The position numbers were made by a program, and so were the translations under genes. From contig CAZLWR010000001.1 in the NCBI GenBank assembly GCA_964563595.1, positions 9,857 to 73,856 on the forward strand: a stretch of DNA of 64,000 nucleotides, read 5' to 3'. Below the pieces are notes generated by a model. It was not told the DNA's origin. It saw only the letters and a list, made by a program, of their open reading frames with translations, and ran no database searches. Shown in pieces: positions 1 through 63,391 of the stretch. Each line of letters opens with the position of its first letter. Position 1 is the stretch's first letter. This DNA comes from an uncultured Candidatus Peribacteria bacterium. Lineage in GTDB: Bacteria > Patescibacteriota > Gracilibacteria > Absconditabacterales > Absconditicoccaceae.

Positions 1-3000
1 TGTTTTCCCTGCATCAACAATGGCTTCCAGAAGGTTTGCACCCAATGCGAGGTTACTATTTATCTTATCAATAATGAAGATGGCATTGTTTACCACGATA
101 CCGATAAGTGATATAAAACCAATCATGAATGGCATACTATAGGGATTTCAGGTTATCCAAAGTCATATGTTGGCACCCAACAACGCTGTAATGATAGAAT
201 AGAGAATGATGATGGATTGTGAAAAACTATTGAATTGATAGATAAGAATCAAAAATATAAGAAATATAGCTACCGCAAAGGCAACCATTGTTGCTTGGAT
301 CAAATCTGCATTTGCTGCATTTTCTCATCATGCTTTGTAGGATATTCCTGCAGGGAATTGATAGCTTGATGCAAAGGTGACCAGTTTGGGTTGAAAGTCG
401 GTTGGAGTCTTTCCTATTTCCAGGTCTGATTCTACGGTGATAGTTAAATCTCAATCTTTTCTACTCAAGAGATTGAGAGACTGGTTAATAGAATACTCCG
501 CAACCGAACCAAGCATAATGGGTCAGTTTTTGGTATTGATTATGGTGCTTAAAAGGACTTCTGGTGTCAGATTATTTTTAAATCATTTATATTTTACGAT
601 AATATCTCTGTCTTTTTTCTCAAGTGATATGGTCCCTGCATTTTGACCCAAGAGAGCAGACAATACTTCTCCCTGAAAATCACTTGGATTTAGTCATAGC
701 TCTGCAAGTTTATTGCGATCTCGGGTAAATTCGAATTGTCATGGATTGTTCTTACTGGAATTACTGACATTTGTGGTTCCCTCTAGAGACTTCAGGTAAG
801 TTTCAAAATCGACAGAGACTTTTTTGAGTGAGTTGAGTAGGGAAGTATCATCTGCAATAAGCTGAACTCCTACGGCCTTACCTGTGGGCGGTCAACCTTC
901 TTGTACTTTTGATTCCACGGTATATCACTTTTCTTTGAGATAAGCAAGCATACTGAGTAGTTCATCCTGTACTTCAAAACTATTCTTCTGTCTTTTGCCT
1001 TTTTTGACCAATCTAACAGCGATGTTGATGGTATTATTACTTACTACAAGATTGAAGTTTCTGAGTTCAGGTAGATCTGCTATAATCTGACTGACTTTGG
1101 GGGCCAGGGACTTCATACTGTCTGTCGTTGCTCATTCCTTGGTACTGATAGCAATATTCATGAATTCATTGTCCCCTGAGGGGAAAAGCGTAAAGCCTAT
1201 ACTGCCAGAAAGAAATACAAAACTCATGATCAATAATGCAACAGGCCCGAGATAAGATCGTTTTCTCCAAAATCTATGTTCCAGAATTCGATGTAATTTA
1301 GTACTATACCAATGGGCAACGGTATTTATGAATTTGTCGGTTGCTGGCTGTGCCTCGGCATTTCTTGCTTGCTTTCCTTCTTGTTCGAGTTTTAATAGTT
1401 CTTTATCTTCTTCACTCAGTAGTATTTCTTCGTCTTCTCATTCTTCGTAATCCTTAGGTTTAAAATAGTAATTCTGATTAATATTTAATTTCCAAAAAAT
1501 TGCATTATTGATAGAAGATGCCAAAAATAAACTTGCTGCAAGTGTAATAAAGATGGTAATAGGTATATATGCTAAGAACTTTCCTGTGATACCCGGCAGT
1601 GCAAGCATAGGTAAAAATACAATCATATTTGCTAGCGAACTGGTTATATTTGGTTTGGCATATTGTTTGAGGGCTAGTAGTACAGCGGTTTTTGCATTAT
1701 ATCCCTTCTTCATCAGTTCGTATGCGGCTTCTATAATCACAATGACGGTATCGATCCCCATACCAAAGGTGAGCACCAATGAAAAATTAGTAAGGAAGTT
1801 GAGCGTATAGCCCATCCGGTTCAGGACGATAAAGGTGATGAAAAATGATAGAGGCATAGCGAGGGTAGCAATGAGAGACTGTTTCAGTCCTACAAAAACC
1901 CGCATAATCAGAAAAATGAGTATGACCGATTGGACGGCATTTGATCCTAGTGATGCATAGTCATCAATAATAATCTCAGATAAGTCCGTTGTGTATTCTA
2001 CTTTTATACCTGCATAGATTGGTTTTTGTAATTCTTTCTCGATGAGCTTTTTGGCTTCACCTGCGTTTTCAAATACGTTCGAACGATTTGCCTTGTAGAT
2101 TACAAGCGTGGTTGCTACGTTGTCGCCATCTGCTTTTATTCACCCATATCCTAATGAAGTATCTTTATAATTTCTTTCTATAGTGGCTATGTCTGCAAGT
2201 CTAATATATCTTTTTGGACCCTGTGTGCCAATCGTGAGGTTGATGGGTATATCCATAAGTTCGCTTACAGTTGTTATTTTTCCTTTGATTCTATAATCGT
2301 ACTTGAAATTTCCCAGCGTGTGATTCCCCAGTGGCAAGTTGGCATTAAAGTTCCTGATTGATTGAGTTACTTGTCCAAGTGTTAGACCTAATTGTTGAAG
2401 TCTTTTTTCGTCAAGAAGTACATCTATATCATATTGATTGTCTACTGTTGATCATCATCCCATACCTCATCCATCTCCTACTGAACCAATTTTAGCGTCT
2501 ACAATAGGCCCCTCTCATTTCAAGTCATCCGCTAGTTGGTAAGCAAGAGTTCTTAAGTGGTTTATAGAAAAAGACTTCGCATCAGCATAGAGCATCATTT
2601 CAAACAAAAGTTCGTTTGCTGTACTGATTTCGGTCACCGTTGGGTCTTTCGCGTCTGTTGGTAGACTAACTTTTGCTATTTCATTTTTGACATCGTTGAT
2701 AAAATCTTTTACATTTGTTTCGTTTTTTAGCGTAACAACAAGGCTTGATATACCTACTGATGAACTTGCATCTATATTATCAATTCCATCAAGATTCTCT
2801 ATTTTATCTTGTAATTTGGTAGTAATGAGCTGATCAATATCTACGGGATTTGCTCCTGGATAAGCAGTAGTGATACTGATAAGTCAGAACTTAATATCTG
2901 GCGAGGATTCTTTTGGAATTTGAAAGGCAGCAAAAAGGCCATATCCTACGAGTAGAATAGTTAACATAACAGATATTCTGAAGTTTTTGATTCGTCGTCC

Positions 3001-3027
3001 AAAGAAATTATTTTCTAATGAATCCAT
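1..3027 (-). CDS. RND (AcrB/MMPL-like) efflux transporter; 3' end runs off the window start
   Basis: The minus frame is open from ATG (3027) to position 1 once TGA=Gly. Standard-code fragments 925..1116, 1438..1905 and 2140..2337 share this frame, and I found no in-frame TAA/TAG. The N-terminus MDSLENNFF..VMLTILLVGYGLFA..PDIKF-G-LISITTAYPGANP and the TM block LAMPLSFFITFIVL..GMGIDTVIVIIEA are typical RND features. Confidence 0.85.
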
Positions 3028-3285
3028 ATAGGGGTGCAGCTGCGGGGACATACGAAAAATAGATAACTATAAATTGCACAAGAAGGCATTGTATACAATT
3101 AGACTGAAAAATGAAGACGAGTTGAATGAAATGACAAATTTCTCGAGTTATTATTTTCGTGATAAGTCAATTATGAAGTTATATTTATATGATAATATTT
3201 TCTTTTTATACCATTTTTATGGCATCCTTATTTGAAAGCTAGACATGAAAAGTTATGATGTATTTTTGTACCCTCTAAGAATTTG

Positions 3286-4362
3286 ATGAATCAAAACAGT
3301 GAACTTATTATATCCGATCAGCTAGCCATTGATTGAAAGAAGATATGCCTTGTGGGTAATCGATGACATCATAATTTTGGTGATGAGCTCATATGTATCG
3401 GACTTATTAAGCTGCTTATAAAACACAATGTTGAAGACTGAAAGCTAAAGGCTTTATATGTTTCTTGCGGAGACAGTAGCTTTCTCAAGGAGTTTTATCG
3501 TTATTTTTTTTCAGAACAAGAGTTGAAATATATTCATTATATTCAAGAAATCCCCCATGGGTTTAGATCGTGATGGCGTTTTCTAACTTCTAAGCTTACA
3601 GATCTTTGGACTTACTTTCGTTGTGATACATTTATTATAGGCTGAGGGGAATTGTTTACTGAAGAAACACCAGGTAGTTATCTTTATTGGTTTGTTTCAT
3701 TATTTCCTTTTTGGTTGCGTAGCTTATTTAAACCAACAAGATTATATGTAATGTGAGGTATGCAAGAACCTAGAACTTGGTATAATAAACTACTCTTAAA
3801 GTGGATCGTCAAGTCTACTTCAGCTTGTTTTTTGAGAGATGAAGAAAGCGTGGATGCCGCAAAGAAAACAAAACATATGCTCCCAAGTTCAGCTACTTGA
3901 GCCATATCTCGATTTATAGATACGAGTTATTTTGCATTAGATTATGTCACTCTCCAGAAAAATAACATAAAAGATAATCAGAAGACAAAACATATTATTG
4001 TTAATACTAACCCATTATCTACCAAATGGACTGCAGAACTGTCTGACATTGTCTGACAGTATCATGTCTTGGGATATCAGGTCTATTTCTTACCTGCATT
4101 TTTTACAAGCAATCCGCAACAAGATGATATGGCTTGTTATGAGCTTTTAAAGAAACAACATAACTTTATTCAATTACTGGATCGAAGAAACTGGGATCAG
4201 TTTATCCCTTTATTTATGAGCACAGAAAAGATATTTTGCTCAAGACTTCATGTATTTCTTGTGGCTGCTTTTCTGGATAAAGATGTTCAAGCCTATCCTT
4301 ACCAAAAAAAGATTTCCAAGAATAGGGAAATTCTAAAAAGATCTTGAGTTTTAAAAGAATAA
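3286..4362 (+). CDS. polysaccharide pyruvyl transferase family protein
   Basis: A single frame-1 ORF appears when TGA=Gly; I checked it triplet by triplet. Motifs seen: KICLVGN-W-G-HHNFGDELI, IIG-G-GELF, and a C-terminal SRLHVFLVAAFLDKDVQAYPYQKKI. The antisense ORF 3684..3905 is a shadow. Confidence 0.75.
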
Positions 4363-4469
4363 GTGTTTTATTGTTGTCACAATAGTGCATGCCTCTTGTA
4401 TACTCAGAGGCTTATAGCTGTATTATATTTTTTAAAGATTATATTTATCTACTTTATATAGTATACTAC

Positions 4470-5468
4470 ATGAAAAAAACTCTTTTATCTGCTTTTGCTG
4501 CTTTGTTTGCAGTAAGTAGTATCGCAGCGATTGCTGGCGGGACTAGAATGGTGACTAATGTTGTAGATCCTGCAAATGAAAACGGCACTGCAAAGCCGAT
4601 TTGGGTGGATCCAGATTATCCCAATGGAGGTAACATTACTTATAACTTTGATGCGTTGGATTTGAAAACCTATGTAGCAACAAATAAATCTACTATTGTA
4701 AAGGTCAGATGTGATAGCAAAGCTATTCTTAAGGCCCTTGGTGTTACTACTGCGAAGGTGATATCTATAGGAATCCAAGAATGAGATTTCACTTTCACCT
4801 ATGACTTCAATAACTGCTCTTTTTGGGCAGGTAGGATCAACTATCTTCAGGCTACTGACGTAATAACTGATGATGTTGCTATCAAAATGGCAAAAGACTT
4901 TTTAGCGAAAAGTGAGGCATTGGGTTATTTTAAAACTATGGTTGGTGAACCGATTATTATGTATAGAAATAACTTTGATGCACAGGGTATAGCAAGAGAA
5001 GGAAAGTCTTATTCTCTTACAGTTGCTTTCCCAATTAGGATTTCTGGTAAATCTGTTTATCAAACCTATGGAGATCCACTTGGTTTGACTATGGAAGTAA
5101 ACAATCAGGGTGTTAGCAGTGCAAATGCTGGTATATTGCCTTTTGGCCTATTGAAGGCAGATAGCTACAAGCTTTCAGTAGATGACTTGCTCGCATTTTT
5201 GAAAAAAGGATGAAACAATCCTTATTATCCACCTTATGTTGTGTGAGTAGATAATGCCCAGTTGAAAGCCGAAGTAAAAGCGACTAGTTTTGACAAGATA
5301 TGGGTTATCAACTACAAATATCCTCCTTATGGTGGACAGCCTTCTATCTATCTTACCAGTTGAATTAGAATAAAGACTGATAAAAAACTCGATAATGGTC
5401 CTGGTACAGAAAAGAGAGATTACAATATGGTGGTTAGTGACTATAAAGTAGCAAACAATTATTACTAA
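4470..5468 (+). CDS. secreted hypothetical protein (N-terminal signal peptide)
   Basis: It starts MKKTLLSAFAALFAVSSIAAIAGG. Fragments 4389..4784 and 4887..5213 lie in the same frame and are joined through TGA codons. It ends at TAA 5466..5468 and is followed by a strong terminator. Confidence 0.75.
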
Positions 5469-5533: not shown

Positions 5534-5599
5534 GTTATCTTGTATTGAGACAGTATTTTGTTACTAATTATTCAGTTTATTATATATTTCACTATACCT

Positions 5600-7184: not shown

Positions 7185-8906
7185 ATGCCAAAAAGTAAGA
7201 TTTTACCAACTGATTTTGTTCTACATACGCGAGATGATGTAAGGCTCTATTATGATCAGGTTATTTCTCAACCAATCAATAGCGTTGATGATCTTAAGAG
7301 GTTTATAGATAATACATGCGATCTAGATGATTATCTTTCTGAAGATTACGCTCGAAGATATATCAAACAATCTTGTAATACTTTGGATCAAGACCTCAAG
7401 AAGCATTATGAGGAATTTGTTGATGCAGTTCAACCTGATCGATCAAAGACTTCAGATCTTATTAATAAGCTCATAGTCGCAAGTCCTTATACAAGTGAGT
7501 TGGAATGACCTTATGCTATATTGCTGAGATGAATAAAGAGGTCAATTGAGGTTTATAGAGAGGAAAATGTTCCCTTGGAGCAAGAAGTCGATAAGATTGG
7601 ACGTGCCTATTCAGAACTTGTTTCGAAAATGACTATAGAGCACAATGGTGAAGAACTGACCATGAAACAAGCATCTAAGTTCTTGAAGGAAAAAGACAGG
7701 AATTTGAGAAAAGTAATATGGGATAAAATGGTGACTAGGAAAGCTCAGGATTATGATGCTATCGATGCCATTCTGGACAAGTTAATTTCTCTTAGAACAA
7801 AAATGGCTCAAAATGCTTGATTTACTAATTTTGCAGATTTTAAGCACTTTGCTTTACAAAGATTCGATTATACTTTGGATGACATATATGCCTTCCATCA
7901 ATCAATCTATGAGATTATTTCTCCCTTGGCAAAAAGTATTACTGAACATAGAAGGAAAGTATTGTGACATGAGCTTAAGCCATATGATTTTGCTGTGAGT
8001 ATTTTTGATAAAAGCAGTAACGAATGTTATAAAGACAGCTCTGATCTTGTAGAAAAAATAGCAAGCTCGCTGAATAGCACATTCCAATGATTCGGTGACT
8101 TCATAAAAAAGCTAAGCACTTTAGGACAGCTTGATTTGACCACCAGGAAAGGTAAGGGACCCGGTGGTTATAACTATCCCTTGAGTACATCCGATAGCTC
8201 ATTCATTTTTATGAATGCAGTAAACGATAGTTATGGAATGTTTACTATGTTGCACGAAGCGTGACACGCACTTCATCACCATTATACCTATTGAATTGAG
8301 CCCTCGGCTTCTAGGCATCCTTGATCTGAGGTTTGTGAAATTGCTTCTATGGCTCAAGAATTGCTAAGTCTTGATAAATTGGAGAACTTTTTTGAAAATA
8401 AACAAGACTATACTATCGCTAGTATGGAAAAATTGGAAGATGATATCCTTACATTTCCCTGGATTGCTAAAATTGACTTATTTCAACAACGACTCTATAA
8501 AAATCCAAATCACACCCATGAAGAAAGAAATCATAAACGATGAGAATTAGCTCAGCAATATGCTAATAGTAGTGGCTTGGGTCAATATGATTCTTGGATA
8601 GGAGATTATGAAAATGCTTTATTATACCGTTGGCAGGGACAAATGCATATTTTTGATTTACCAATGTATTACATTGAGTACGCTATAGCAGGCTTAGCGG
8701 CAATTGCTATGTGGAAGAATTATTTGGAAATCCCTGAACAATGAATACAAAACTATATAAACTTACTTAAAGTAGGTAATACAAAAACAATGCCGGAGAT
8801 ATTTGAGACATGAGGTATCAAGTTTGATTTCTCTAGAGAGTATGTTCAAGAGCTTATGAATTTTATGCATACTAAATTGGAAGAATATTATAATAAGTTG
8901 TGATAA
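7185..8906 (+). CDS. pepF: M3-family oligoendopeptidase F
   Basis: The zinc motif HEA-G-HALHH has its Gly encoded by TGA at 8262..8264. The C-terminal part carries FQQ-W-LYKNP..EERNHK-W-G-EL with CGA at the Trp positions. All fragments (7173.., 7575.., 8349..) are in one frame. Confidence 0.85.
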
Positions 8907-8940
8907 TTTCAGATTATATTATATATAACATAAGCAGACG

Positions 8941-10788: not shown

Positions 10789-11556
10789 TTATTTTTGAGT
10801 TAACTTATTGGTTTCTCATTGTATTATTACTTTATAATAAGGACATACTTGTTGCAAAGGACATGGCTCACATTTTGGACTTCTAGCTGTGCAGTGATAT
10901 CTTCCAAATAATACGATACTATGATGAGCAATTGTTTTGTTTTTTTGGTAGATTAGATGCTCTAGTAGTATGCTTGTTTGTTCTGGCATATTTGTTTCCA
11001 CTCGTCCCAGCCTATTACACACTCTGTGAACGTGCGTATCTACTCCAATTTCTCCAGATCCATATAGTATATGACTTACTACCTTTGCAGTTTTAATGCC
11101 CACTCAGGGGAGTTCGGTAAGAACATCGGTAGACCTTGCTATAAGGTAGCCATACTCCTTGTAATATGATTTTTCTTTATTACTTGTCAAGTGTATATTA
11201 GAAGTAGATTGGGTTAGTAACAATTGAGCCGTCTTATAGATGTATAGTGCTTTTGCTTTATAAAAGCCTATGGATTTAATCTGTTCTTTCAACTTATCTC
11301 ATCATAGTTGTATAATATCTTTTGGAGATTTTATAATCTGAAACAGAGCAGTAGTCACTTTGTTTACTTGTTTATCTGTACATTGAGCGGAAAGAATGAC
11401 AGCAACAAGTAATTGGAATGGTGTTTCTCGATGAAGTTCAGTTGTGGTAGATGGAAACATCTTATGAATAACCATGAGTTCATTATTGATTTGCTTTTTG
11501 GTTTTTTTCATGAATGATTTAGTTATAGGTGAGTTATTGTCATTATATAAGGTCAT
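10789..11556 (-). CDS. nth: endonuclease III
   Basis: Motifs seen: FQLLVAVILSAQCTD; HhH motif LP-G-VGIKTA with Gly=TGA (11104..11106); VDTHVHRVCNRLG-W (CGA 11002..11004); and a 4Fe-4S cluster C-x6-C-x2-C-x5-C (CTARSPKCEPCPLQQVC). The true start may be the internal MKKTKK. Confidence 0.9.
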
Positions 11557-21087: not shown

Positions 21088-23028
<1,941 letters not shown>

Positions 23029-50500: not shown

Positions 50501-53500
50501 TGCTTCTCAATATGAAAAAACTCTCAAACATAATACTGGTAGTCTCAAACAATTTGTAACAGCATGACAGAGTAAACAAAAACTTACCAAAAGACTCAAT
50601 ACGGTTCTATCAAATCCTTTTGAGAAATTAGCATTATTTTTCGCTGATAGTGAATTAGTAAGGATCAGTAGTAGAGATGTGTTGGTAGAAATACCTTGGA
50701 TATATACGGAGGACATAGTTACTCTCAGATGAGTATATAGAGCTTGGCGAGAGAGAAATCAGCCGGTCCTCAAAGAACGACAGGACTTTGCTATTGATTT
50801 TGTGAAACAATGTGAGGCGAAAACGGACGATTTCGAGAGACAAAATTGTATGATAAGAGCCAACAAAATTATACAACTCAATAATCAACTAGGCCAATTT
50901 GAAAAATCTATCAGAAGGAATCTTCAGGTATTGGATGAATATGGTGAATTTCCAAGTAAGGTATATGACCTATTGCATGGTTATGACACTTATATTTATG
51001 ATCTATTTAATTTTGCTTATGGTACTATTGATGCAGTAACGAGCTGGCTATCGAAGCTTGCAAGAGGATTTGAGGCTTGGGTAGACTTTATTGTATCCTT
51101 GATAGGTATTCTTAAAACCCGGCAGGTATTGATTGATTTTTCAGTCAACTGGAAAGAGAAATGCAGCAAATGTACGGTAGATAATTATTCGGCTTATAGT
51201 TGCTCCTTTAGTAAGTTTTGTCCCAAATTACCGGTATTTAATATACCTCCATTCAAAATACCAGATATTACAATTGATCTGAGCAATATAGATTTACGTA
51301 CTGATATTGTATTACCGAAGTTTAGGTTCCAGCCTAAAAGAATCTGATTATTTGATAATATTAAACAATTTGGTTTGCCTGATGTGCCGTATCCTACGCA
51401 AATTGGATGGCTAGATAACGAAATCAACCTTAAGCTACCTTCTATCCCGCTGATACCATCACCGCCAGATTTGGATGCAATTAGCTTACCAAGCTTTATT
51501 CCTCAAATCAAATTCAAAGGTCCTACACTGCCACCAGCACCGAAGATTCCTAAGATAGCCCCAGAACTTGGCTTAGCAATTGATATCGCTGATTTCATTG
51601 GAAGAATATATTGTTTGGTAAAGTGAGGTATTGGATTGGTCGGAGAAGCAGGGCTCAAGTCAAGGATTGAACAAATGACTCAAAGAACTTGGGCAGTAGA
51701 ACCATTCGATAGTCTCAAGTTACTTATACCAAATGCTCCTTTGCAAACTCTCAATCTCTTCAAACCCCAAAGGGACGAGGGAGGCAGTTTAGATTTCAAA
51801 CTGGAAGCCTTTGCGGATGTTAAAATGTACTTTGATGGAGTGTATGGATTATTTGATGGAATAGCCGAAAGTATCAATACTCAAACAAGGAAGGTGCAAA
51901 GAACGAGTACTGAGGTACCTGCTTTACAGACAGTAGGTGAATTTATAGACAAGGCTAGTTCAACATTCATTGATGCTACTGATAAAGCAACAAACGAGAG
52001 TATTCAGACCAATATTAATATTAACCCTTTTGGTTACGTAGAAACATCAGATTATCATTCAATCAATAGTAAGATCAAATGAGATCTTGCTTATTTCACT
52101 GAAAAAGATGATCAGCCATTTGCACAGGGAAGAAAATTGCTTGCTGCTGATATTGTTAGATCCTATGATTTAGATACCACTGTGAGAATAAATACAAAAG
52201 GTATGGATGAAATAAAAACTCAAGTTAGTGAGGTATTAAATCAAGAGTTGAAAGAAAATAGTGAAGTGAAGAATTGGATACAACAGGATTGGGACGGTTG
52301 GCTTGATCACATCATAAGTACACAGTATGTAAGCGACGATAAAACACTGTATTCCTTAAAAACAAACCTTCTGGATATAGATCAACAGACTTTGGACTAT
52401 GTTGGTAATTACGATATCGCTAAAGAGTATGTTGCTACCGAAAAAACAGTGATAGATGGGTATGTCAACGGTCTTGCAAATTCGGATTATGAAACTTTAG
52501 GTATGCAAAAATCAGATTATGATAGATCAGCAGAATATTTGAATACTCTGAAACAGAACGTTGATCTGGCACGAAACAATGTAAATGCTCCCAAACAAGA
52601 AATTGATTCACAAATGCCAGCGAATGTGGATGTTAATTGATGAGAATGAAAGCAACAAATCAATTGTACCTTGTGTAATAAAGAACCTGGTGATCCTGTG
52701 CTACTTTCTCAACAAGGCGGTAACACTAATTCACCTACGAGCAATACCTTTGCACTTGGAGGAGTAGATGATCCAACTAGATATCTCAATGGATACTTTG
52801 TGAAAGGAGATGACGATAATTACCACAATGTTATTACCAATATGGATAAGTGAGAACAACTTAGTAAGAAGAGTTTCGAGAAGGATATTACCAATGATGG
52901 GTTGCATGAAGTTGTCTTGCGGGATGAACACAATGTGTATATCAAATATGCAGATAAAATTTCAAATACTTCTAACCCAAAACAAGGGAAGCATGTTGCA
53001 AACGTTGTTACTATCGTAATAGATTCTGTTGCTGATATGGAGAGCCAAGTAGATGCTTACGGCTATTATGGCAGTCGAGCTGGTAAGACAAAAATTCGAT
53101 CTCAGGAGCGGATGCCTAAGGAATGGGAAGTAGCATGACAAGCTTATCAGTCTATGACTTATACGGTTTCCAATGAAATTGAGTCTGCGGGTGACGGCGT
53201 AGTGGGATATGCAGTGAGATATACTGATACTATTACGAAGACGCTTAGTAAAGATGCCGATTATGATTATATGATTATTTTGGATACCGCATTGCAGGGC
53301 AAACCACTTAGCGATATTGATATTGATGGCGTCCATTTGCAAGCCGATGAGGTGCAGATTATATATGTTGATCCGGGTCAGCAAAGTATCAGTGCTGTTT
53401 TGAGCAATTTACCTAGGAGATGGTACTATAGTCAGATCACTAAGTTATCGAGTAAACAACAGGTAAGTAAATTATTCGGATTTATTCCTTTCGGATCAAA

Positions 53501-54601: not shown

Positions 54602-55465
54602 ATGATAGTACTTTATTCTAAAGATATTATTGCTCAAAAAAAACTCTTTCTACAAGAGCATTTTGCTACTCAACAATATAAAAGTAAGTACCTAGCTATA
54701 TTGTATTTCGGTCATGACCCTGTTATATCCGTATACGTAAGGAACAAAATCAAATTTGGATATGATGTTGGATTGGAAGCTAGGTTGTTTGGGCAGGAAA
54801 AGTATTATACGCTTGAAGATGCATATGAGTGCATAGAGTCTTTAAATAAGGATAAACACTGCGTAGGAATCATTATCCAATTGCCTCTTCCTTCTTATCT
54901 GCAAGATTATCAACAGTCTTTGTGTAATGCTATTGCTATTGGAAAAGATGTAGATGCTATGACTAGTGCTATGATGGGTAAGATAGCAATGGGTTCCCCA
55001 GATGCAATATATCCTGCGGCGGTATGAGCCAGTATACAATTATTAGATTTTTATAATCTGAATGCCATAAGGGGTAAGCAGATAAGTATTATCGGGCAGA
55101 GTAATTTGGTAGGGAAACCATTTGCTTTGTATTGCATTAATCAGTGAGCCCAGGTTCATAGTTTTGGTGTAGACGGTGATCCTGAAGTTATGAAAGAAGT
55201 TTGTAGAAATTCAGATTATATTATATCAGCAACCGGAGTTATTGAATTGGTTACTAAAGAGTATGTAAGAAACGATAAAACCCAGATTATCATCGATATT
55301 GGTTATGGTATCAAAGATGGTAAAGCTTTTGGTGACGTTGCATTTGAACAGGTACAAAACTTGGTCCATGCTATTACACCCGTACCTGGTGGGATATGAC
55401 CTATGTGTGTATGTCAGTTGTTTGAGAACATACTATTACTTACAAAGGATCTTTCTGAGAGATAA
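54602..55465 (+). CDS. folD: bifunctional methylenetetrahydrofolate dehydrogenase/cyclohydrolase
   Basis: Motifs seen: YVRNKIKFGYDVG, GIIIQLPLP, IIGQSNLVGKP, and ITPVPGGI-G-PM. Confidence 0.88.
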
Positions 55466-56564
55466 GAAGTCTATTTTGAATAGCAAGTATCTTTTGTGCT
55501 AATAGTTCTGGTTTTTCCTCATGAGGATTGTGCCCTAGATCTGCTATAACTTCAAATCATCCCTGGGCAATATGCTCACAAATTTCTTCAATCCTTTCTC
55601 GTTTAAAGCGCTTATCTTTTTCTCCGTGCAATACATATACAGGTGTATCTATAGATGTTAGTATATCCTCGATCCAGTTCATATCTTCTCTGAAAAGATT
55701 AATCGCAGTGTAATAAAATGCTCTGAGGAAGTCGGGATTCGATGCTTGCTGGAGATAATCGGGAAAGAAATAGTTCATATTAGGGTTGTGTTTATCCGCA
55801 TAGAGTACATTAAGTCTCTTTTTGATGAAATAATGCAGTAAGAACTTCCCGAGTTTATCAAGTTTCTTTTGCCCAATAAGATTTTTGGAAATGCGGAAAA
55901 ATTGCTGTGTCTGTTTTGTTTTTTTGGCTGTATATTTATCAATACGACTGAGTACGTCGTATATTGGTAGAGATGGTCTGTAATACGCTGGATTGAGGCA
56001 GATAACGCTTGATACATAGCGTTTAACATCCTCATCATGTGCAACTGCCGTTGCAATAGTACCTCCTATAGAATGTCCAAGAAGGGTAAAGCTATCTAGA
56101 TCCTTGGCATCAACAAGTCTCAGTACTTTCATTCTTGCGTGCTGAATAATTTTTTCCGAAGTTCGTTGGTCTATGTCTCCATGGAGTGATTCTAGAGAAT
56201 CAAGACGATTGCCATGTCCTTTCAATGATAACGTGTAGAAAATTGCTAGATGTCAGGTGGACCATAGGCTTTGTTTGAGCAGATCAAAACTTTTTTCTGA
56301 ACCACCAAATCAATGCAAGCATATGTAGATAGGTGCATTATGAGCCTGAGTAATGACTACCGGATTGGTAGATTGATGAAGAGTTTTAATGATGGACTCT
56401 TGTTGTCATCATTGGAAACTTGAAAGCGTGCTATAACTTATGGTATATATTTTTTTGGAGTCTGTTTGATCATCAAGAATCATGTGAAGTGCACTACTGT
56501 CATTTAATAGTGCTGAGTCCAGTGGATCTCCTGAATAATCTGATTTAGTGACTTGTGTTATCAT
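55440..56564 (-). CDS. alpha/beta-fold hydrolase
   Basis: Oxyanion motif ICLH-G-FGGS, nucleophile elbow LLGHSIGG, and a C-terminal ..DLGHNPHEE (His). Its 3' end overlaps folD by 26 nt. Confidence 0.75.
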
Positions 56565-56661: not shown

Positions 56662-58089
56662 TTATTGTATTGTTTCCCAGTGTACTCTTGTTTGCTCCAT
56701 GGTGTCTCTATTTCTGATTGTTACGGTACCGTCTTCGAGTGATTGATGATCAATACAGACACAATACGGCGTACCGACTTCATCTTGTCTACGGTATCTT
56801 TTACCAATATTCCCACCGGCATCATATTCACATTTGTAAGTCTTTTTCAGTTTATCATATATTTTTCTACCTAATTCTACCATGTTTTCATCTTTTTCTA
56901 TCAAAGGTAGTATAGCGTATTTGATTGGTGCAATCTCGAAAGGAAACCTGACTACTACTCTTGTTTTATCATCACTGCCTTCTCCCTGCGAAGCAATGGT
57001 TTCTTCATCGTAAAACTCTAGCATACTTGCCATCATACAACGACCTACTCCCATAGATGTTTCTACGCACCATGGTATATATCTCTGACCTGTTTTTGGG
57101 TCAGTATATTGCATACTTGTTTTTGAATATTCTTGATGTTGCTTAAGATCAAAATCAGTACGATTGTGAATGCCTTGCACTTCTCCAAATCACCATGGGA
57201 AGGCAAACTCGATATCCGTAGCTGCTGCTGCATAGTGAGCGAGTTTATCGTGATCTTTATATCTTAAATGTTCTGGAGATATACCAATAACCTGAGTCCA
57301 AAAATCCATACTTACCTTTTTCCGCTCATCAAATACCTTCATAGCGTTATCGGGATCGGCTGGTACAAAGTATTCAATTTCCATTTGTTCGAATTCTCTT
57401 GTTCTAAACAAAAATTGACCAGGAGTAATTTCATTGCGGAATGCTTTACCTATTTGAGCCAGACCAAAAGGTATCCTATTCCTCGTAGTGTCGCATACAT
57501 TTCTAAAATCAGTAAATAAACTCTGGCAAGTTTCTGGTCTCATATATACTTTGTTTGATTCGTCTGCTACGGGTCCAAGGGTAGTATTAAGCATAAGATT
57601 GAAATTTCTGCATTCTGTCCATTCTGGCTTTTCTTTTAGTCCCTTTGGTCGTATTTCTTCTTCAACAATAAATCTTCTCATGTTTTCATTTCCTCGGGAT
57701 TCCGGAGATCAGTTGAAAAATTCATATTCGCTTGGATGCTTTTTATATGAGTCCTTTTGTCTGCCTTCGATATACTCTTCGATAAGTTTATCTGCTCTAA
57801 ATCTTTGTCCGGTTTTTTTGTCGTCAATAAGTGCATCACTAAATCATCCTACATGACCGCTTGCGATCCAGGTGGTAGGGTGGGCGATTATAGCAGTATC
57901 CATCAAGATAACATCATCACGCTCTTGCGTATAATATTTTACCCAAAGATCAGTAATATTTTTTCTCAACAATGCTCCATATGGTCCATAATCCCATGCA
58001 TTTGCTAATCAACCATATATTTCACTATTGGGATATACAAAACCCTTTCTCTTGGCTCGTGATACGATTGTTTCTAGTGGGAAAGACAT
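56662..58089 (-). CDS. glyQS: glycyl-tRNA synthetase (homodimeric class II, GlyQS type)
   Basis: Motifs seen: [88 protein letters not shown], and RYIPWCVETSMGVGR. Confidence 0.92.
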
Positions 58090-58626: not shown

Positions 58627-58747
58627 ACACGAAGTATAGCGGATATTGTGTTTTTTTCAAGTTTTCTGGTGATTTTGTGCATATGTATCCCAATAGATAT
58701 TGTATCCTGCTGGAAAATCTGTAGTATCAGATTATATTTATTTTTTT

Positions 58748-59245: not shown

Positions 59246-59608
59246 ATGAGACATATGCTTGTACTATTCTGATTATTAATGATTTTTGTAAATCCATCGT
59301 TTGCTCTTACGGTAGAGGTGCCTTGAGATGCTCCGACCCTCAAAGATACCAATGTGCCGAGCTCGCTCATACAGGGTAACTCTGACAGCATTATTACTTT
59401 AGTACAGCAGATCAATGATTATTTGTGGTTTACTATCGCTGCAATTTGTCTTGCTGTAGCTATTTATGCTGGTATTAAGTTGTTGCTGGCACAGTGAGAA
59501 AAAGCAAAAATGCAAAAAGCAAATGAAACGTTAGTTGGTGCCTTGGTAGGCGTATTCATTGCTGTATTCGCTTACGTTCTGGTAAGAATAATAGTTAATC
59601 TTTTTTAA
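59246..59608 (+). CDS. TrbC/VirB2-like T4SS-pilin family protein (common CPR small surface protein)
   Basis: It has a signal peptide (MRHMLVLF-G-LLMIFVNPSFA) and two TM helices flanking the AGIKLLLAQ-G-EKAKMQKANETL loop. Confidence 0.7.
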
Positions 59609-60461: not shown

Positions 60462-60507
60462 TATAATCAGAACTGCTCAGCTTTTAAACATTTTAACAAA
60501 GAGTCTT

Positions 60508-61944
60508 ATGTCTTTATATTTGAAATACCGCTCTCAAACCTTTGACGACATTGTTGAACAGGAATACACCAAAGATATTCTCAAGCAACAAGTGATTAAA
60601 TCCTTTGAAGGAGAGAGTTTTTCAAATTATCTTTTTTATGGTTCTAGAGGTATCGGTAAAACTAGTATAGCGAGAATAGTTGCAAGGGCGCTCAATTGTT
60701 TGAATAGCAAAGACGGAAATCCTTGCAATGAATGTGAAAGCTGTAAGATTATTTCCCAAGGAAAATCTGTAGATATTGTAGAAATCGATGCAGCAAGTCA
60801 TACGGGAGTAGATAACATCAGAGATGAAATTATTAATAAAGCCATCTATCCGCCAACCCAATTAAGAAAAAAAATATACATTATCGACGAGGTCCATATG
60901 CTTAGCACTGGTGCGTTCAATGCATTGCTGAAAATTATGGAGGAGCCACCAAGTTATCTCGTCTTTATACTTGCGACTACTGATTTACATAAGGTTCCAG
61001 ATACGATTATTTCTCGTTGCCAGCTGTTTAGTTTCAAGAGAATTACCATCCCCGGTATTGTTTCTAGATTAGAATATATCTGCAAACAAGAAGGATTTGC
61101 TTATGATGTCGCTTGACTGTCAACGATTGCAAAACTTGCAGATGGAGGCATGAGAGATGCAGTGAAGTATCTAGATCAAGTGAGTATATTGGGTCGTATA
61201 GACGAAGAGACCGTTGCTCAATGCTTGGGAGTAACTTCCGATGCTATTGTAAAGGAGTTTGTAGAGCTTATTGAAACTCGTGATGGCGTACGTGGTGTTC
61301 AGCTTATTTCTTCATTACAAGAAAAGAGTATCGATATTTATGTTTTTTTGAAGGACGTCCTTCAATATATTGATAGAAATATAACAGTTGAGAATATGAA
61401 CATCTCACTTCCTGTAGCACAATTCATCAAAACGGTATATGAAAAACTTAAGTACTTTCCCCATCCTATGGTCTTACTTAAGGCTGAGTTATTGGACTAT
61501 GCTTGAACAAAAGCTGGTCAATTGCCATCTAAACCTGTTGAAAAAAGAATTGATAATCAGACAGACACTCCTAGTACTCCTGTACAAATGCCAGTACCAG
61601 AGCCTATAGTTTCAACTGAAACAGTAGAACTTCCTCAGGCCAACAAATTGCCTCTTGCTGAGCATGATTTCGATGCCATCAAAGACCGTATTATCAGTCA
61701 TATGAGCAGTCAATCCCTCAAATCTATTTGGGAGGGCAGTTGTCATATCGATTCGATCCAAGGTGGACTTATGAAAGTACATGTTATTGAAAACGGTAAG
61801 ATGATTTTGCTGAACATGAGTAATAATAAGCAGATTGTGGAGAAACTCGCTAGTGAGATACTAGATAAAACAATTCAGATAGAATATGAATTTATTGAAA
61901 AGGAAGAATTTTTGAAGAAATGATTGGGTGGATTATTAGTGTAA
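60508..61944 (+). CDS. dnaX: DNA polymerase III gamma/tau subunit
   Basis: Motifs seen: YRSQTFDDIVEQE, YLFYGSRGIGKTSIARI, zinc module CNECESC, IYIIDEVHMLS, FNALLKIMEEPP, and SRCQLF. Confidence 0.92.
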
Positions 61945-62223: not shown

Positions 62224-62233
62224 CACAACTATA

Positions 62234-62815
62234 ATGAAAGCAAGCGAAAAGCTTCATGCTGAAGACGAAAATCCTCTATCACATGAGACTGTAAAAGGAC
62301 GAAAAAGACGGGGAAAGGTTATTTTTCGGTTCGCCATACTTATTGGATTTAATTATCTGCTTTATCTTATTTATGTGATGCCGTTAAAAGACGCTTCGGT
62401 CCAGCATACCCCAATCGTTGCAACTGGCGGAGGGAATCCTCAGACAGGTTTGGTACAAAAAGAAATTATAATCTGAACAACATCTCTTTTGGTAGAGCTC
62501 GCCCAAACTCCTGAACAAAGAAGGATTTGATTGATGTATCGTGCAAGTCTCGGCGTAAAAGAAGGTATGATCTTCATGTTTGACAACGAACAACCGCTGA
62601 GTTTCTGGATGCAACATACCTATATTCCTTTGGACTTGATCTATGTGTGAGCTGATCAGATTATTAAACATATTCACAAAGGAGCAAAGACGCTTGATTT
62701 GACTGGCTTACCCAGTATCTATCCTGTACAGTATGTGATAGAGGTCAATAGCGGTTTTGTGGACCAGTTCAATGTGAGAATCGGAGACAAGGTCATATTG
62801 GATAAAAATCAATAA
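62234..62815 (+). CDS. DUF192 domain protein with N-terminal membrane anchor
   Basis: TPEQRRI-G-LMYR..L..KEGMIFMFD..QPLSFWMQHTYIPLDLIYV is the DUF192 signature. Confidence 0.7.
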
Positions 62816-62902
62816 AATTTACAAACAATTGAACTTCAGTATTGAAATATTATAATAATTGCAATATTTGCATCAATGATCTGATTATAAATTCATTTTC
62901 CT

Positions 62903-63391
62903 ATGAAATACAAAATTCTTACTGGGGCAACTAATCCAATTCTGAGAGCTGTCGCTGATCCGATAGACCATTTTACTAACGACATTGCTCAATTGTGAGA
63001 AGATATGAAGAAAATCTGTCATGATTACGATGGAGTAGGTTTAGCGGCTCCTCAAATAGGCTTGCCCTTGAGGATGATTTACATTACGCATTGGAGAAAG
63101 ACCCCAAAGGGCACTAAGTACATCAATGATCAGATTATGATAAATCCCGAAATATTGTCTCAATCTGAAACACTGAATACAGATGTGGAGGGATGTCTCA
63201 GTCTGCCTTGATTAACTGGTAAAGTGAAAAGACATGATTGGATTAGAGTGAAATTTCAAGATATTGAGTGAAAGGTAGGTACTAAGAACTATAAAGGATT
63301 TGACGCAAGAATCATACAGCACGAGATAGATCATATCAATGGTGTCTTGTTTATTGATAAAGCTAAGGATCTAAGAAGTTCAGATAAATAA
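62903..63391 (+). CDS. def: peptide deformylase
   Basis: The three signature motifs are present: GVGLAAPQIG, EGCLSLP-G (Gly=TGA 63209..63211), and HEIDHINGV. Confidence 0.93.

What the first reader, a model, noticed from the sequence alone, without database searches (positions are those of the whole stretch)
1082..63138. Highly over-represented 9-mer TCAGATTAT / ATAATCTGA scattered in both orientations, all reading frames and intergenic DNA (DNA-uptake-sequence-like word)
By manual scan I found the exact 9-mer 35 times.
- Forward copies start at 8909, 11833, 13533, 15323, 18445, 24932, 27870, 28548, 33669, 33855, 42036, 47318, 48924, 52047, 52512, 55211, 58727, 62656, 63130.
- Reverse-complement copies start at 1082, 11333, 14479, 14728, 18782, 26461, 30328, 36322, 37559, 45517, 46971, 49495, 50365, 55053, 56535, 62468.

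Assuming about 1/3 A, 1/3 T, 1/6 G and 1/6 C, such a 9-mer is expected only about 1-2 times on both strands of 64 kb.

The word is translated in several different frames, including Q-I-I, S-D-Y, I-I-G and (D/N)-N-L. It also occurs in intergenic spacers (8909, 18445, 36322, 58727). The constraint therefore acts on DNA, not on a peptide.

Three copies extend to a perfect 13-bp palindrome ATAATCWGATTAT (24928..24940, 28544..28556, 36322..36334). One-base variants with the central W swapped also occur, for example at 3975, 12842, 22566, 51345 and 60473. I saw no strand bias, which argues against Chi or KOPS-type polar motifs.

The density, about one per 1.8 kb, is in the range of Neisseria DUS and Pasteurellaceae USS. 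CPR bacteria depend on DNA and nucleotide scavenging via competence-type pili, and a pseudopilin and a pilin-like gene lie in this window. A self-recognition uptake signal is therefore an attractive but unproven explanation. Alternatives are a site for a nucleoid or global regulator (the palindrome suggests a dimeric binder) or a methyltransferase target.
Basis: seen in the sequence. Interest (0 to 1): 0.82.

Follow-up and report, generated by a model that had tools for sequence, protein, structure and literature searches.

The report
Hyper-abundant DNA word in SR1 bacteria
A 9-base DNA word (TCWGNTTAT) is scattered about once every 670 bases through this UGA-recoded SR1/Absconditabacterales genome and its nearest relatives, on both strands and in most reading frames. 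It has the statistics of the DNA-uptake sequences of Neisseria and Haemophilus, but its function is untested.

Summary
The exact 9-mer occurs 40 times (reader: 35), against about 2 expected. A codon-aware null that keeps every protein and the codon usage gives 3.6. The true motif is degenerate, TCWGNTTAT. It has 95 copies against about 10 expected, split 47 on + and 48 on -, with random spacing and no preference for intergenic DNA or terminators. A weak T-rich, G-poor tract lies 6-9 nt downstream. The genome reads UGA as sense (SR1/Absconditabacterales). The same motif, at 1.1-1.8 per kb, occurs in six further loci from at least four other syntenic relatives. It is at background in seven other SR1/Gracilibacteria loci and in 722 kb of unrelated AT-rich DNA. 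Only about 30% of sites are shared at orthologous positions, although density is constant. This indicates an ongoing genome-wide process acting on DNA. The best analogy is a DNA uptake sequence spread by biased uptake plus recombination (confidence about 0.4). Uptake bias, a receptor and the genome's com genes could not be tested. Rivals are binding sites for a clade-restricted winged-helix/H1-like protein encoded in the window, or a methylase- or repair-linked process like HIP1. I found no published description.

The parts
148..156 (+). TCAGGTTAT
567..575 (+). TCAGATTAT exact
857..865 (-). TCAGCTTAT
1082..1090 (-). TCAGATTAT exact
1904..1912 (-). TCTGATTAT
3974..3982 (-). TCTGATTAT
4197..4205 (+). 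TCAGTTTAT
5052..5060 (+). TCTGTTTAT
5572..5580 (+). TCAGTTTAT
7256..7264 (+). TCAGGTTAT
8909..8917 (+). TCAGATTAT exact, intergenic
8930..8938 (-). TCTGCTTAT, intergenic, convergent with 8909
11333..11341 (-). TCAGATTAT exact
11833..11841 (+). TCAGATTAT exact
12842..12850 (-). TCTGATTAT, intergenic, upstream of the wHTH/H1-like gene
13533..13541 (+). TCAGATTAT exact
14479..14487 (-). TCAGATTAT exact
14728..14736 (-). TCAGATTAT exact
14795..14803 (+). TCAGATTAT exact
15314..15322 (-). TCAGTTTAT
15323..15331 (+). TCAGATTAT exact
15451..15459 (-). TCAGCTTAT
18395..18403 (-). TCTGATTAT, intergenic
18445..18453 (+). TCAGATTAT exact, intergenic
18782..18790 (-). TCAGATTAT exact
20346..20354 (-). TCAGCTTAT
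21215..21223 (-). TCAGATTAT exact
21916..21924 (+). TCTGATTAT
22566..22574 (-). TCTGATTAT
23320..23328 (+). TCAGCTTAT
24116..24124 (-). TCTGATTAT
24928..24936 (-). TCTGATTAT, half of palindrome 24928-24940
24932..24940 (+). TCAGATTAT exact, half of palindrome
25943..25951 (-). TCAGCTTAT
26087..26095 (+). TCTGCTTAT
26461..26469 (-). TCAGATTAT exact
26891..26899 (+). TCAGATTAT exact
27870..27878 (+). TCAGATTAT exact
28328..28336 (-). TCTGCTTAT
28544..28552 (-). TCTGATTAT, half of palindrome 28544-28556
28548..28556 (+). TCAGATTAT exact, half of palindrome
29794..29802 (+). TCAGCTTAT
29899..29907 (+). TCTGATTAT
29987..29995 (-). TCAGCTTAT
30328..30336 (-). TCAGATTAT exact
32936..32944 (+). TCAGTTTAT
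33493..33501 (-). TCAGTTTAT
33669..33677 (+). TCAGATTAT exact
33855..33863 (+). TCAGATTAT exact
34289..34297 (-). TCAGCTTAT
36014..36022 (-). TCTGGTTAT
36322..36330 (-). TCAGATTAT exact, half of palindrome 36322-36334
36326..36334 (+). TCTGATTAT, half of palindrome
37118..37126 (-). TCAGGTTAT
37559..37567 (-). TCAGATTAT exact
38581..38589 (-). TCTGGTTAT
38752..38760 (+). TCAGATTAT exact
38893..38901 (+). TCTGATTAT
42036..42044 (+). TCAGATTAT exact
42139..42147 (-). TCAGTTTAT
42371..42379 (+). TCAGGTTAT
43482..43490 (+). TCAGGTTAT
43977..43985 (-). TCAGGTTAT
44255..44263 (+). TCAGGTTAT
45517..45525 (-). TCAGATTAT exact
46971..46979 (-). TCAGATTAT exact
47318..47326 (+). TCAGATTAT exact
47435..47443 (+). 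TCAGTTTAT
48229..48237 (-). TCTGATTAT
48575..48583 (+). TCAGCTTAT
48924..48932 (+). TCAGATTAT exact
49276..49284 (-). TCTGTTTAT
49495..49503 (-). TCAGATTAT exact
50341..50349 (-). TCTGGTTAT
50365..50373 (-). TCAGATTAT exact
50493..50501 (+). TCTGATTAT
51343..51351 (+). TCTGATTAT
52047..52055 (+). TCAGATTAT exact
52512..52520 (+). TCAGATTAT exact
55053..55061 (-). TCAGATTAT exact
55211..55219 (+). TCAGATTAT exact
56535..56543 (-). TCAGATTAT exact
56847..56855 (+). TCAGTTTAT
57287..57295 (-). TCAGGTTAT
58727..58735 (+). TCAGATTAT exact
59268..59276 (+). TCTGATTAT
60463..60471 (-). TCTGATTAT
61299..61307 (+). TCAGCTTAT
61553..61561 (-). TCTGATTAT
61826..61834 (-). TCTGCTTAT
62468..62476 (-). TCAGATTAT exact
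62656..62664 (+). TCAGATTAT exact
62880..62888 (+). TCTGATTAT
63130..63138 (+). TCAGATTAT exact
63843..63851 (-). TCAGGTTAT

Best explanation
TCWGNTTAT, with a weak T-rich, G-poor tract 6-9 nt downstream, is a clade-specific genome-wide recognition word. It behaves like the DNA uptake sequences of Neisseriaceae (DUS) and Pasteurellaceae (USS).

Proposed mechanism (inferred, not shown): a component of the DNA-uptake machinery of this Absconditabacterales clade binds DNA carrying the word preferentially. Conspecific fragments that carry it are imported and recombined more often. Mutations that create the word are therefore over-transmitted and those that destroy it are lost (molecular drive). 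The word builds up to an equilibrium of about 1.5 per kb wherever the proteins tolerate it, on both strands and in any usable frame.

What is shown: the statistics, the DNA-level nature of the constraint, the restriction to one clade, and site turnover at constant density. What is inferred: the link to uptake.
For: (1) Enrichment survives every null tried.
- Exact word: 40 against 2.2 in dinucleotide shuffles, and against 2.1 under an order-3 Markov model.
- In CDS: 36 against 3.6 with proteins and codon usage kept.
- TCWGNTTAT: 95 against 10.3 +/- 3.1.

(2) The constraint acts on DNA.
- Four frame/orientation classes are used: 32, 25, 12 and 12 sites.
- Intergenic or gene-edge DNA holds 10 of 95 sites on 8.3% of the sequence.
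- Synonymous codon choice is skewed towards the word.

(3) There is no polarity. Strand counts are 47:48 in a window whose GC skew is positive nearly throughout, with cumulative skew rising across the window. Same-strand versus antisense to genes is 48:37.

(4) Placement is random and even. Mean spacing is 667 and sd 663. There are no significant deserts here or in relatives.

(5) Eight positions are strict and two are relaxed. This is a mismatch spectrum of the kind a binding specificity gives. A one-position repair bias could not produce 24-fold enrichment, because the expected counts of the roughly 27 one-mismatch neighbours sum to only about the observed count of the word itself.

(6) An asymmetric downstream T-rich, G-poor tract is present in all five motif-bearing genomes tested (L302 and L303 were not checked for it) and in every frame class. 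It recalls the AT-rich flanks of the USS.

(7) The same word occurs at 1.1-1.8 per kb in six other loci (L082, L087, L001, L089, L302, L303) from at least four other genomes. One of these has 40% GC. It is at background in seven other SR1/Gracilibacteria loci and in 722 kb of unrelated AT-rich DNA.

(8) Only 25 of 86 orthologous sites are shared, while density stays the same. Motif sites are 2-3 times better conserved than other 9-mers in the same alignments. This means continuing gain and maintenance, as the drive model predicts.

(9) Literature: com genes and type IV pili are conserved across CPR. ComEC mediates true transformation by homologous recombination in Saccharibacteria and is dispensable for growth (PMC10187176). 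An Absconditabacteria relative has ComEC, ComEA and type IV pili (PMC8080830).
Against: - No uptake experiment exists, and the defining property (biased uptake) is untested.
- The window has no comEC, comEA, dprA or secretin. Its one type IV pilin-like protein has no ComP_DUS match even at E<=1.
- Known DUS/USS systems are confined to two diderm proteobacterial families. The well-studied monoderm transformers take up DNA without sequence preference (established knowledge), and CPR cells are monoderm-like.
- There is no enrichment as inverted pairs in terminators, unlike Neisseria.
- Spacing is simply random.
- Depletion in mobile DNA could not be assessed. The only island-like stretch (L302 4216-6757, with Abi_C and Bro-N genes) has 2 sites in 2.5 kb, which is not clearly depleted.
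- SR1 relatives with GlyRS as similar as 78-79% lack the word and show no replacement word. The trait is therefore labile.
- A clade-restricted DNA-binding protein is encoded in the window and offers a different reader for the word.
Confidence: 0.4

Rival explanations
1. The word is the binding site of an abundant chromosomal (nucleoid-type) protein of this clade. One candidate is the protein encoded at 12153-12788, which has a winged-helix domain and a histone-H1-like Lys/Ala/Pro tail. Under this reading the sites are kept by selection for chromosome organisation or for marking self DNA.
For: - The protein has a wHTH domain (HTH_45; weak PDB similarity to HxlR and to the archaeal chromatin protein Sso10a) plus an HC2/H1-like tail.
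- Its family is very narrow: 9 clusters among 5.8 billion proteins. Every homologue-bearing contig I could examine carries the word (window, L082's contig by contig-length match, L302, L303). No hit was seen on the 932-kb or 675-kb contigs of the motif-negative relative.
- A motif copy lies in the short spacer upstream of the gene in the window (12842) and in L303 (3917), but not in L302.
- The asymmetric core plus a T-rich flank about 18 bp long fits a protein footprint.
Against: - The co-distribution is confounded by phylogeny, since all carriers belong to one clade.
- The window's own copy is missing from the protein database, so absence elsewhere is weak evidence.
- To my knowledge no nucleoid protein has roughly 1,500 near-exact 9-bp sites per Mb inside coding DNA.
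- Per-site selection would be very weak.
- Spacing is random rather than regular.
Confidence: 0.2
2. The word is a by-product of a sequence-specific DNA methyltransferase and/or a dedicated mismatch-repair or gene-conversion activity. The analogy is the proposed link between HIP1 and methyltransferases in cyanobacteria, or between Vsr and CCWGG in E. coli.
For: - The phylogenetic distribution is labile, as expected for a mobile modification gene.
- An Absconditabacteria relative encodes eight DNA methylases and several R-M systems (PMC8080830).
- The core TCWGA resembles short R-M type sites (my own knowledge).
Against: - No DNA methyltransferase or R-M gene was found among the 27 window proteins scanned. 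The remaining proteins were assigned only by reading their translations.
- A contiguous asymmetric 9-mer with one N, plus a fuzzy one-sided T-tract, fits no standard R-M class (my own knowledge). R-M targets are normally avoided, not enriched.
- A repair bias at one position can at most convert the pool of one-mismatch neighbours, which is far too small for 24-fold enrichment over eight strict positions.
- The word is not palindromic, unlike HIP1.
Confidence: 0.12
3. The word is a polar chromosome-maintenance signal: a Chi-like recombination hotspot, or a KOPS/AIMS-type orienting sequence for FtsK.
For: The length (8-9 bp, with one N as in KOPS GGGNAGGG) and the over-representation in core genes are compatible.
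Against: - Strand counts are 47:48 in a 64-kb window whose cumulative GC skew rises across its whole length. There is no switch of orientation along the window.
- Pooled relatives give 102:115.
- Known Chi and KOPS motifs are strongly skewed towards the leading strand (established knowledge).
Confidence: 0.03
4. The enrichment has no function and is an artefact of base composition, codon or dipeptide usage, a repeated peptide, a dispersed mini-repeat (MITE/REP), or the assembly.
For: - The genome is AT-rich (36% GC) and the word is AT-rich.
- The frames used encode common residues.
Against: - All composition-aware and codon-aware nulls fail by 10-fold or more.
- Flanks carry almost no information, so the word is not part of a longer repeat.
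- Sites lie in frame inside conserved housekeeping genes for GlyRS, IleRS, FtsH, a Clp ATPase, SHMT and DnaX.
- Unrelated AT-rich genomes lack the enrichment.
- Seven loci from independent assemblies (NCBI, ENA, JGI) show it, including one at 40% GC.
Confidence: 0.02

Closest known systems
Pasteurellaceae uptake signal sequence (USS; 9-bp core AAGTGCGGT followed by AT-rich flanking segments)
   Same: - A 9-bp asymmetric core at about 1 per kb, equal on both strands and mostly inside genes in several frames.
- The word bends codon and tripeptide usage.
- A weaker A/T-rich flank lies on one side only.
- Family-level sequence variants exist.
- Individual sites turn over while density is kept.
   Different: - Unrelated sequence and an unrelated phylum: CPR/Absconditabacterales, monoderm-like, with UGA read as Gly.
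- Uptake bias is not demonstrated.
- The word is confined to a sub-clade, and close relatives have no word at all.
- The flank signal is much weaker.
Neisseriaceae DNA uptake sequence (DUS, GCCGTCTGAA / AT-DUS, with dialects; receptor is the minor pilin ComP)
   Same: - Density, strand symmetry and clade specificity.
- Tolerated variation at defined positions. The A:T ratio at the W position is 67:28 in the window but 15:17 in L001, which is reminiscent of dialects.
- By coincidence it shares the pentamer TCTGA.
   Different: - It is not concentrated as inverted pairs in terminators.
- No ComP_DUS-type pilin was detected in the window.
- There is no outer membrane or secretin context.
HIP1 (GCGATCGC), the highly iterated palindrome of cyanobacteria
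   Same: - A hyper-abundant short word in all frames and in intergenic DNA.
- Patchy across lineages.
- Function unresolved.
   Different: - HIP1 is a perfect palindrome that contains methylase target sites.
- The present word is asymmetric. Only 3 of 95 sites form the 13-bp palindrome.
Chi (for example GCTGGTGG) and KOPS/AIMS (GGGNAGGG)
   Same: An over-represented 8-9-mer in the core genome. KOPS also has a central N.
   Different: Those motifs are strongly co-oriented with replication. This word is not (47:48).

Membership tests
DNA uptake sequences (DUS/USS) | DNA carrying the word is taken up or transformed preferentially by the cell | not testable with these tools
   This needs uptake or transformation competition assays. 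No literature links uptake sequences to CPR.
DNA uptake sequences (DUS/USS) | Hundreds to thousands of copies, about 1 per kb, far above composition-aware expectation | tested here: met
   There are 95 copies in 64 kb (1.48 per kb) against 10.3 expected. The exact word occurs 40 times against about 2. Only 64 kb of this genome and 13-22 kb of each relative were seen, not whole genomes.
DNA uptake sequences (DUS/USS) | Both orientations equally frequent, with no replication or transcription polarity | tested here: met
   Strand counts are 47:48. Same-strand versus antisense to genes is 48:37.
DNA uptake sequences (DUS/USS) | The constraint acts on DNA: the word occurs in several reading frames and in intergenic DNA, and distorts synonymous codon use | tested here: met
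DNA uptake sequences (DUS/USS) | Shared by related species and absent from unrelated genomes, with site turnover at constant density | tested here: met
   Six further motif-bearing loci, seven motif-negative SR1/Gracilibacteria loci and 43 unrelated AT-rich loci were compared. Orthologous sites are shared in 25 of 86 cases.
DNA uptake sequences (DUS/USS) | Competence machinery (ComEC, ComEA, DprA, type IV pilus) present in the same genome | not testable with these tools
   The window holds only one type IV pilin-like gene (23563-24210) and a T4SS pilin (59246-59608). The rest of the genome could not be fetched. Relatives are reported to have these genes (PMC8080830, PMC10187176).
DNA uptake sequences (DUS/USS) | A dedicated sequence-specific receptor (ComP-type minor pilin in Neisseria) | tested here: inconclusive
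   The one pilin-like protein in the window has only the N_methyl motif and no ComP_DUS hit at E<=1. The receptor could be encoded elsewhere or be of another type.
DNA uptake sequences (DUS/USS) | Under-representation in prophages and recently acquired DNA | tested here: inconclusive
   There are no significant deserts. The only island-like stretch (L302 4216-6757) is too short to judge. Two scans of viral contigs found no motif-rich contig, but the sensitivity was low.
Neisseria-type DUS specifically | Frequent inverted pairs that form transcription terminators | tested here: not met
   There is one AT-rich convergent pair (8909/8930) with no hairpin or T-tail. There is no systematic overlap with predicted terminators in positions 1-20000.
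HIP1-type iterated palindromes | The word is a perfect palindrome | tested here: not met
   The word is asymmetric. Upstream positions -4 to -1 carry 0.07 bit or less. Only 3 palindromic 13-mers exist.
Chi / KOPS polar motifs | Strong strand skew relative to the direction of replication | tested here: not met
   Strand counts are 47:48, although cumulative GC skew rises across the whole window.
Dispersed repeat elements (REP/MITE) | Conserved sequence beyond the core and an intergenic location | tested here: not met
   Flanks are unconserved, and about 90% of sites lie inside ORFs.
Restriction-modification or methyltransferase target | A cognate methyltransferase is present and the site is methylated | not testable with these tools
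   No DNA methyltransferase was found among the window proteins scanned. Methylation data are not available.

The most novel reading that the evidence does not exclude
The word is a self-DNA mark in a predatory epibiont with a recoded genetic code. A clade-specific reader, either an uptake receptor or the winged-helix/H1-like chromatin protein, uses TCWGNTTAT to tell the cell's own (or conspecific) DNA from prey DNA. Own DNA would be routed to recombination or protected, while unmarked prey DNA is degraded for nucleotides. This would be the first sequence-based self/non-self DNA discrimination system, or the first uptake-sequence system, outside the Proteobacteria and in the CPR.
Probability: 0.15. 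Interest if true: 0.9.

Novelty: new variant of a known kind. Interest (0 to 1): 0.72.

Why it matters
- Genome-wide uptake-type words are known only from two proteobacterial families. A statistically equivalent word in a CPR lineage with an alternative genetic code would mean one of two things. Either sequence-selective DNA uptake evolved independently in a monoderm-like, ultra-small epibiont, or a second, unknown process can load a genome with about 1.5 copies per kb of a 9-mer.
- Either way it gives a concrete, cheap hypothesis to test. One can add TCWGNTTAT, with its T-rich flank, to donor DNA when attempting the first genetic transformation of Absconditabacteria.
- It may provide a sequence signature for binning and recognising this clade in metagenomes.
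- It provides a handle on whether competence in CPR serves genetics rather than feeding.

Tried and rejected
Only two CPR code-25 relatives (L001, L003) came back. The other 78 loci served as an unrelated-genome control instead.

(2) Looking up window proteins by exact identity failed. The database translated this genome with code 4, writing W at TGA, and the contig is not in the position index. The rest of the source genome therefore could not be read.

(3) An apparent 'dialect' GGTCAGACTT in L086 turned out to be a 69/138-bp tandem repeat (L086 6287-7667). After masking that repeat, L086 is motif-negative.

(4) Weak enrichments in L085 (TCAGATTT, 18 against 4.4, strand-biased) and L084 (GTCAGAA) are too weak to call dialects.

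(5) The viral-contig scan for direct pairs of the word returned only tandem-repeat arrays, among them giant-virus MAG contigs. The scan for convergent pairs returned 90 loci at background density. No motif-rich phage was found, but sensitivity is low.

(6) The metagenome scan with the giant-protein alignment gave only three loci. Two of them are identical to L001.

(7) Literature searches found nothing relevant. I searched for the word itself, for uptake sequences together with CPR, Patescibacteria or Gracilibacteria, and for methylation motifs together with Absconditabacteria.

(8) Resemblances considered by eye and set aside, with no tool test: a DnaA box (TTATNCACA), an IHF site (WATCAANNNNTTR) and an Hpy188I-type site (TCNGA). 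They match at only some positions, and none of these occurs at this density.

(9) A link to terminators or promoters was rejected.

Full report
**1. The observation**

The exact word TCAGATTAT/ATAATCTGA occurs 40 times in the window, 23 on the + strand and 17 on the - strand. Dinucleotide-preserving shuffles give 2.19 +/- 1.39, with a maximum of 6. Five copies were missed: 567, 14795, 26891 and 38752 forward, and 21215 reverse. It is the most frequent 9-mer of the window, ahead of every A/T homopolymer-like word. Markov expectations of order 0 to 4 are 1.4, 1.8, 1.7, 2.1 and 3.4. The three 13-bp palindromes are real. Three of the five 'variant' coordinates are off by 1-10 bases.

**2. The genome and the right null model**

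Under the standard bacterial code the window has almost no long ORFs. With TGA read as sense it resolves into a dense set of genes covering about 92% of the sequence. These include a 4329-aa ORF and genes that, read from their code-25 translations, look like a Clp-type ATPase, FtsH, SHMT, DnaX and Def. IleRS, HolA and DUF192 are also supported by Pfam, and GlyRS by database homologues. The GlyRS is identical to a database protein except at its four TGA codons. At two of those columns homologues have Gly. Close homologues are named candidate division SR1 or Candidatus Absconditabacterales. The organism is therefore an Absconditabacterales (CPR) bacterium using code 25.

I then ran codon-aware nulls on 48 genes.
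- 36 copies lie in CDS.
- Reshuffling synonymous codons while keeping every protein and the codon usage gives 3.6 +/- 1.8 (maximum 9).
- Shuffling codon order gives 1.2 +/- 1.1.
- SDY is written TCAGATTAT in 7 of 12 cases, and IIG is written ATAATCTGA in 5 of 11. Codon usage predicts about 1.3 and 0.2.

**3. The real motif**

Single-substitution counts show that two positions are relaxed.
- Position 3 accepts T: TCTGATTAT occurs 19 times.
- Position 5 accepts any base: 10, 9 and 8 copies for C, G and T.
- All other substitutions sit at background.

The enriched unit is TCWGNTTAT. It has 95 copies against 10.3 +/- 3.1 in shuffles and about 12 under an order-3 Markov model.

Placement:
- Strand counts are 47 on + and 48 on -.
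- 85 sites lie inside ORFs and 10 in intergenic or gene-edge DNA, which makes up 8.3% of the sequence.
- 48 sites are on the sense strand of genes and 37 on the antisense strand.
- Frame classes hold 32, 25, 12, 12 and 4 sites. The sixth frame would contain TAA.
- Spacing is exponential, with mean 667 and sd 663. The largest gap, 3.1 kb, is not significant.
- There is no systematic overlap with terminator-like hairpins in the part scanned, positions 1-20000. The one intergenic convergent pair (8909/8930) is not a hairpin terminator.

Flanks:
- Flanking bases upstream carry essentially no information. The word is therefore not part of a longer repeat.
- Downstream, 6-9 nt after the core, there is a T-rich, G-poor tract. 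T is present at +15 in 62 of 95 sites against a 32% background.
- The tract is seen in every frame class.
- More weakly, it appears in all five motif-bearing genomes tested. T at +16 is 46-61%, and G over +9 to +18 is 9-13% against 16-20%. L302 and L303 were not checked for it.

**4. Relatives**

Loci of about 20 kb were obtained around GlyRS, around the giant protein and around the winged-helix gene.

| Locus | Source | GC | Density per kb |
|---|---|---|---|
| L082 | ENA | | 1.45 |
| L087 | JGI | | 1.47 |
| L001 (identical over their shared stretch to L090 and L091) | CALMFT01 | | 1.49 |
| L089 | JGI | 40% | 1.78 (exact word 21 against 0.6 expected) |
| L302 | JGI | | 1.09 |
| L303 | NCBI GCA_041674565.1 | | 1.38 |

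L082, L087, L001 and L089 are syntenic with the GlyRS/giant-protein part of the window. L302 and L303 align to a different part of it, positions 2.4-20 kb.

- Pooled over the first five genomes (142 kb), the exact word occurs 94 times against 4.1 expected. The substitution spectrum is the same, and strands are 102:115.
- The A:T ratio at the W position differs between genomes: 67:28 in the window and 15:17 in L001.
- Seven other SR1/Gracilibacteria loci are at background, 0.05-0.42 per kb. They include the two with the most similar GlyRS: L081 at 78% identity and L088 at 79%. They show no replacement word.
- Forty-three unrelated AT-rich loci (722 kb) have 0.019 exact and 0.11 degenerate copies per kb. 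The second refutation condition is not met.
- In orthologous alignments, only 25 of 86 window sites are also a motif in the relative. Motif sites are nevertheless 2-3 times more often conserved (at most 1 mismatch) than other 9-mers of the same genes.

Density is thus held constant while most individual sites turn over.

**5. What it is**

The data show a clade-specific process acting on DNA that is still operating. It recognises eight strict positions plus a fuzzy one-sided flank, has no polarity, and pays no attention to gene boundaries.

- Composition, codon usage, peptide repeats, mini-repeats and assembly artefacts are excluded.
- Polar signals such as Chi or KOPS are excluded by the strand symmetry.
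- A bias at one position, like very-short-patch repair, cannot give 24-fold enrichment. The expected counts of the one-mismatch neighbours (about 27 variants at roughly 1.5 each) sum to only about the observed count of the word itself.
- To my knowledge, the only known phenomena with this combination of properties are the uptake sequences of Pasteurellaceae and Neisseriaceae. There, biased uptake followed by homologous recombination drives accumulation.

That is my preferred mechanism, with a confidence of about 0.4. The literature supplies plausibility but no direct evidence. Com genes and type IV pili are conserved across CPR. ComEC mediates true transformation and is not needed for growth in Saccharibacteria (PMC10187176). 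An Absconditabacteria relative has ComEC, ComEA and type IV pili (PMC8080830). A recoded genetic code would make preferential uptake of conspecific DNA advantageous; this last point is my inference.

**6. What speaks against it, and the rivals**

- The defining property, biased uptake, is untested.
- The window has no comEC, comEA or dprA. Its type IV pilin-like protein (23563-24210) has only the N_methyl motif. The other 'pilin' (59246-59608) is a VirB2-type T4SS pilin.
- Uptake sequences are so far unknown in monoderm bacteria.

A concrete rival reader is encoded in the window. The protein at 12153-12788 has a winged-helix domain, with weak similarity to HxlR and to the archaeal chromatin protein Sso10a, and a histone-H1-like tail.
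- Its family has only nine clusters in the 5.8-billion-protein database.
- Every contig carrying a homologue that I could examine is motif-bearing.
- A motif copy lies just upstream of the gene in two of three loci.
- This co-distribution is confounded by phylogeny, and the database lacks the window's own copy. I therefore give this reading about 0.2.

A methylase- or repair-linked origin, like HIP1, gets about 0.12. No methylase was found among the window proteins scanned, the word is not palindromic, and its shape fits no R-M class. The labile distribution would suit a mobile gene.

**7. Comparison and novelty**

The word works like a USS in several respects: a 9-bp asymmetric core, a one-sided A/T-rich flank, location mostly inside genes, and site turnover. 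I cannot file it as a member of that class, because uptake bias, a receptor and the com genes of this genome were not testable. The Neisseria-specific association with terminators is not met.

Full-text searches found no paper that connects uptake sequences, this word or methylation motifs with CPR, Patescibacteria, Gracilibacteria or Absconditabacteria.

I rate it a new variant of a known kind (genome-wide iterated recognition words), in a phylum where none has been described. Interest is 0.72.

Noticed in passing
window, whole; GlyRS 56662-58089 (-): TGA is a sense codon. ORFs collapse under code 11 and become long under code 25. The GlyRS equals database protein P0001 except at four TGA codons, which the database wrote as W. 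Homologues have Gly at two of those columns. The organism is SR1/Absconditabacterales.
   Followed up: yes
window 37729-41394 (-): The isoleucyl-tRNA synthetase (1221 aa) carries an inserted NUDIX hydrolase domain at residues about 241-335 (Pfam PF00293, E=1.1e-11, above the curated cut-off). This is an unusual fusion for an aminoacyl-tRNA synthetase.
   Followed up: partly
window 12153-12788 (-): This protein has an N-terminal winged-helix domain (HTH_45; weak PDB similarity to HxlR and Sso10a) and a Lys/Ala/Pro-rich histone-H1/HC2-like tail built of tandem repeats of about 45 aa. The architecture resembles a linker histone. Its family is tiny, nine clusters, and was seen only on motif-bearing contigs. 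A motif copy (12842) lies in its upstream spacer.
   Followed up: partly
window 41580-54569 (+): A giant 4329-aa ORF with 64 in-frame TGA codons. Orthologues lie next to folD in L082, L087 and L001, and the C-terminal 820 aa also match L089. That C-terminal part is 48-54% identical to L082 and L001 and up to 68% (best segment) to L089.
   Followed up: partly
window 59246-59608 (+) and 23563-24210 (-): Two different 'pilins'. One is a VirB2/TrbC-type T4SS pilin (PF18895, E=1.9e-7), conserved in L082 and L001. The other is a type IV pilin-like protein with an N-terminal methylation motif, next to holA.
   Followed up: partly
window 35789-36322 (+): A stand-alone 177-aa ORF that matches only the C-terminal domain of UvrD/PcrA helicases (PF13361, E=1e-28). 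It may be a truncated or split helicase gene. The palindromic motif at 36322-36334 overlaps its stop codon.
   Followed up: no
window ~1-3070 (-): A 1022-aa open reading frame on the minus strand runs off the start of the window. The small plus-strand ORFs first called there are spurious. In L303 the syntenic gene matches ACR_tran, an RND-type transporter family.
   Followed up: partly
window 15937-16587 and 16600-17650: A tRNA cluster (Pro-Thr-Phe-Ile) is followed by about 1 kb with no convincing ORF under either code and no Rfam match. This stretch lies in one of the larger motif-free gaps, 15451-18395, which is not statistically significant.
   Followed up: no
window 18485-19600 (+): A 371-aa ORF with no Pfam match and 20 in-frame TGA codons (5.4% of codons). 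This is much higher than in neighbouring genes.
   Followed up: no
L086 6287-7667: A tandem array of 69/138-bp units inside a 556-aa ORF of a motif-negative SR1 relative. It produced a false 'dialect' signal, GGTCAGACTT.
   Followed up: yes
L085, whole locus: TCAGATTT(T) occurs 18 times against 4.4 expected, with 13 copies on one strand. It is a weakly enriched word that shares TCAGATT with the motif, in a genome lacking TCWGNTTAT. It could be a decayed or related signal, or a coding bias.
   Followed up: partly
L302 4216-6757: A small insertion relative to the window carries Abi_C, cupin and Bro-N (phage-associated) genes, between the ATP-synthase gamma / HI0933-like genes and the Clp ATPase. 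It has 2 motif copies in 2.5 kb, too few to judge depletion.
   Followed up: partly
IMG/VR loci L106, L143, L196: Several viral contigs, among them giant-virus MAG contigs, carry arrays at or near a contig end of 10- or 18-bp tandem repeats that contain TCAGATTAT. These are unrelated to the dispersed word.
   Followed up: yes
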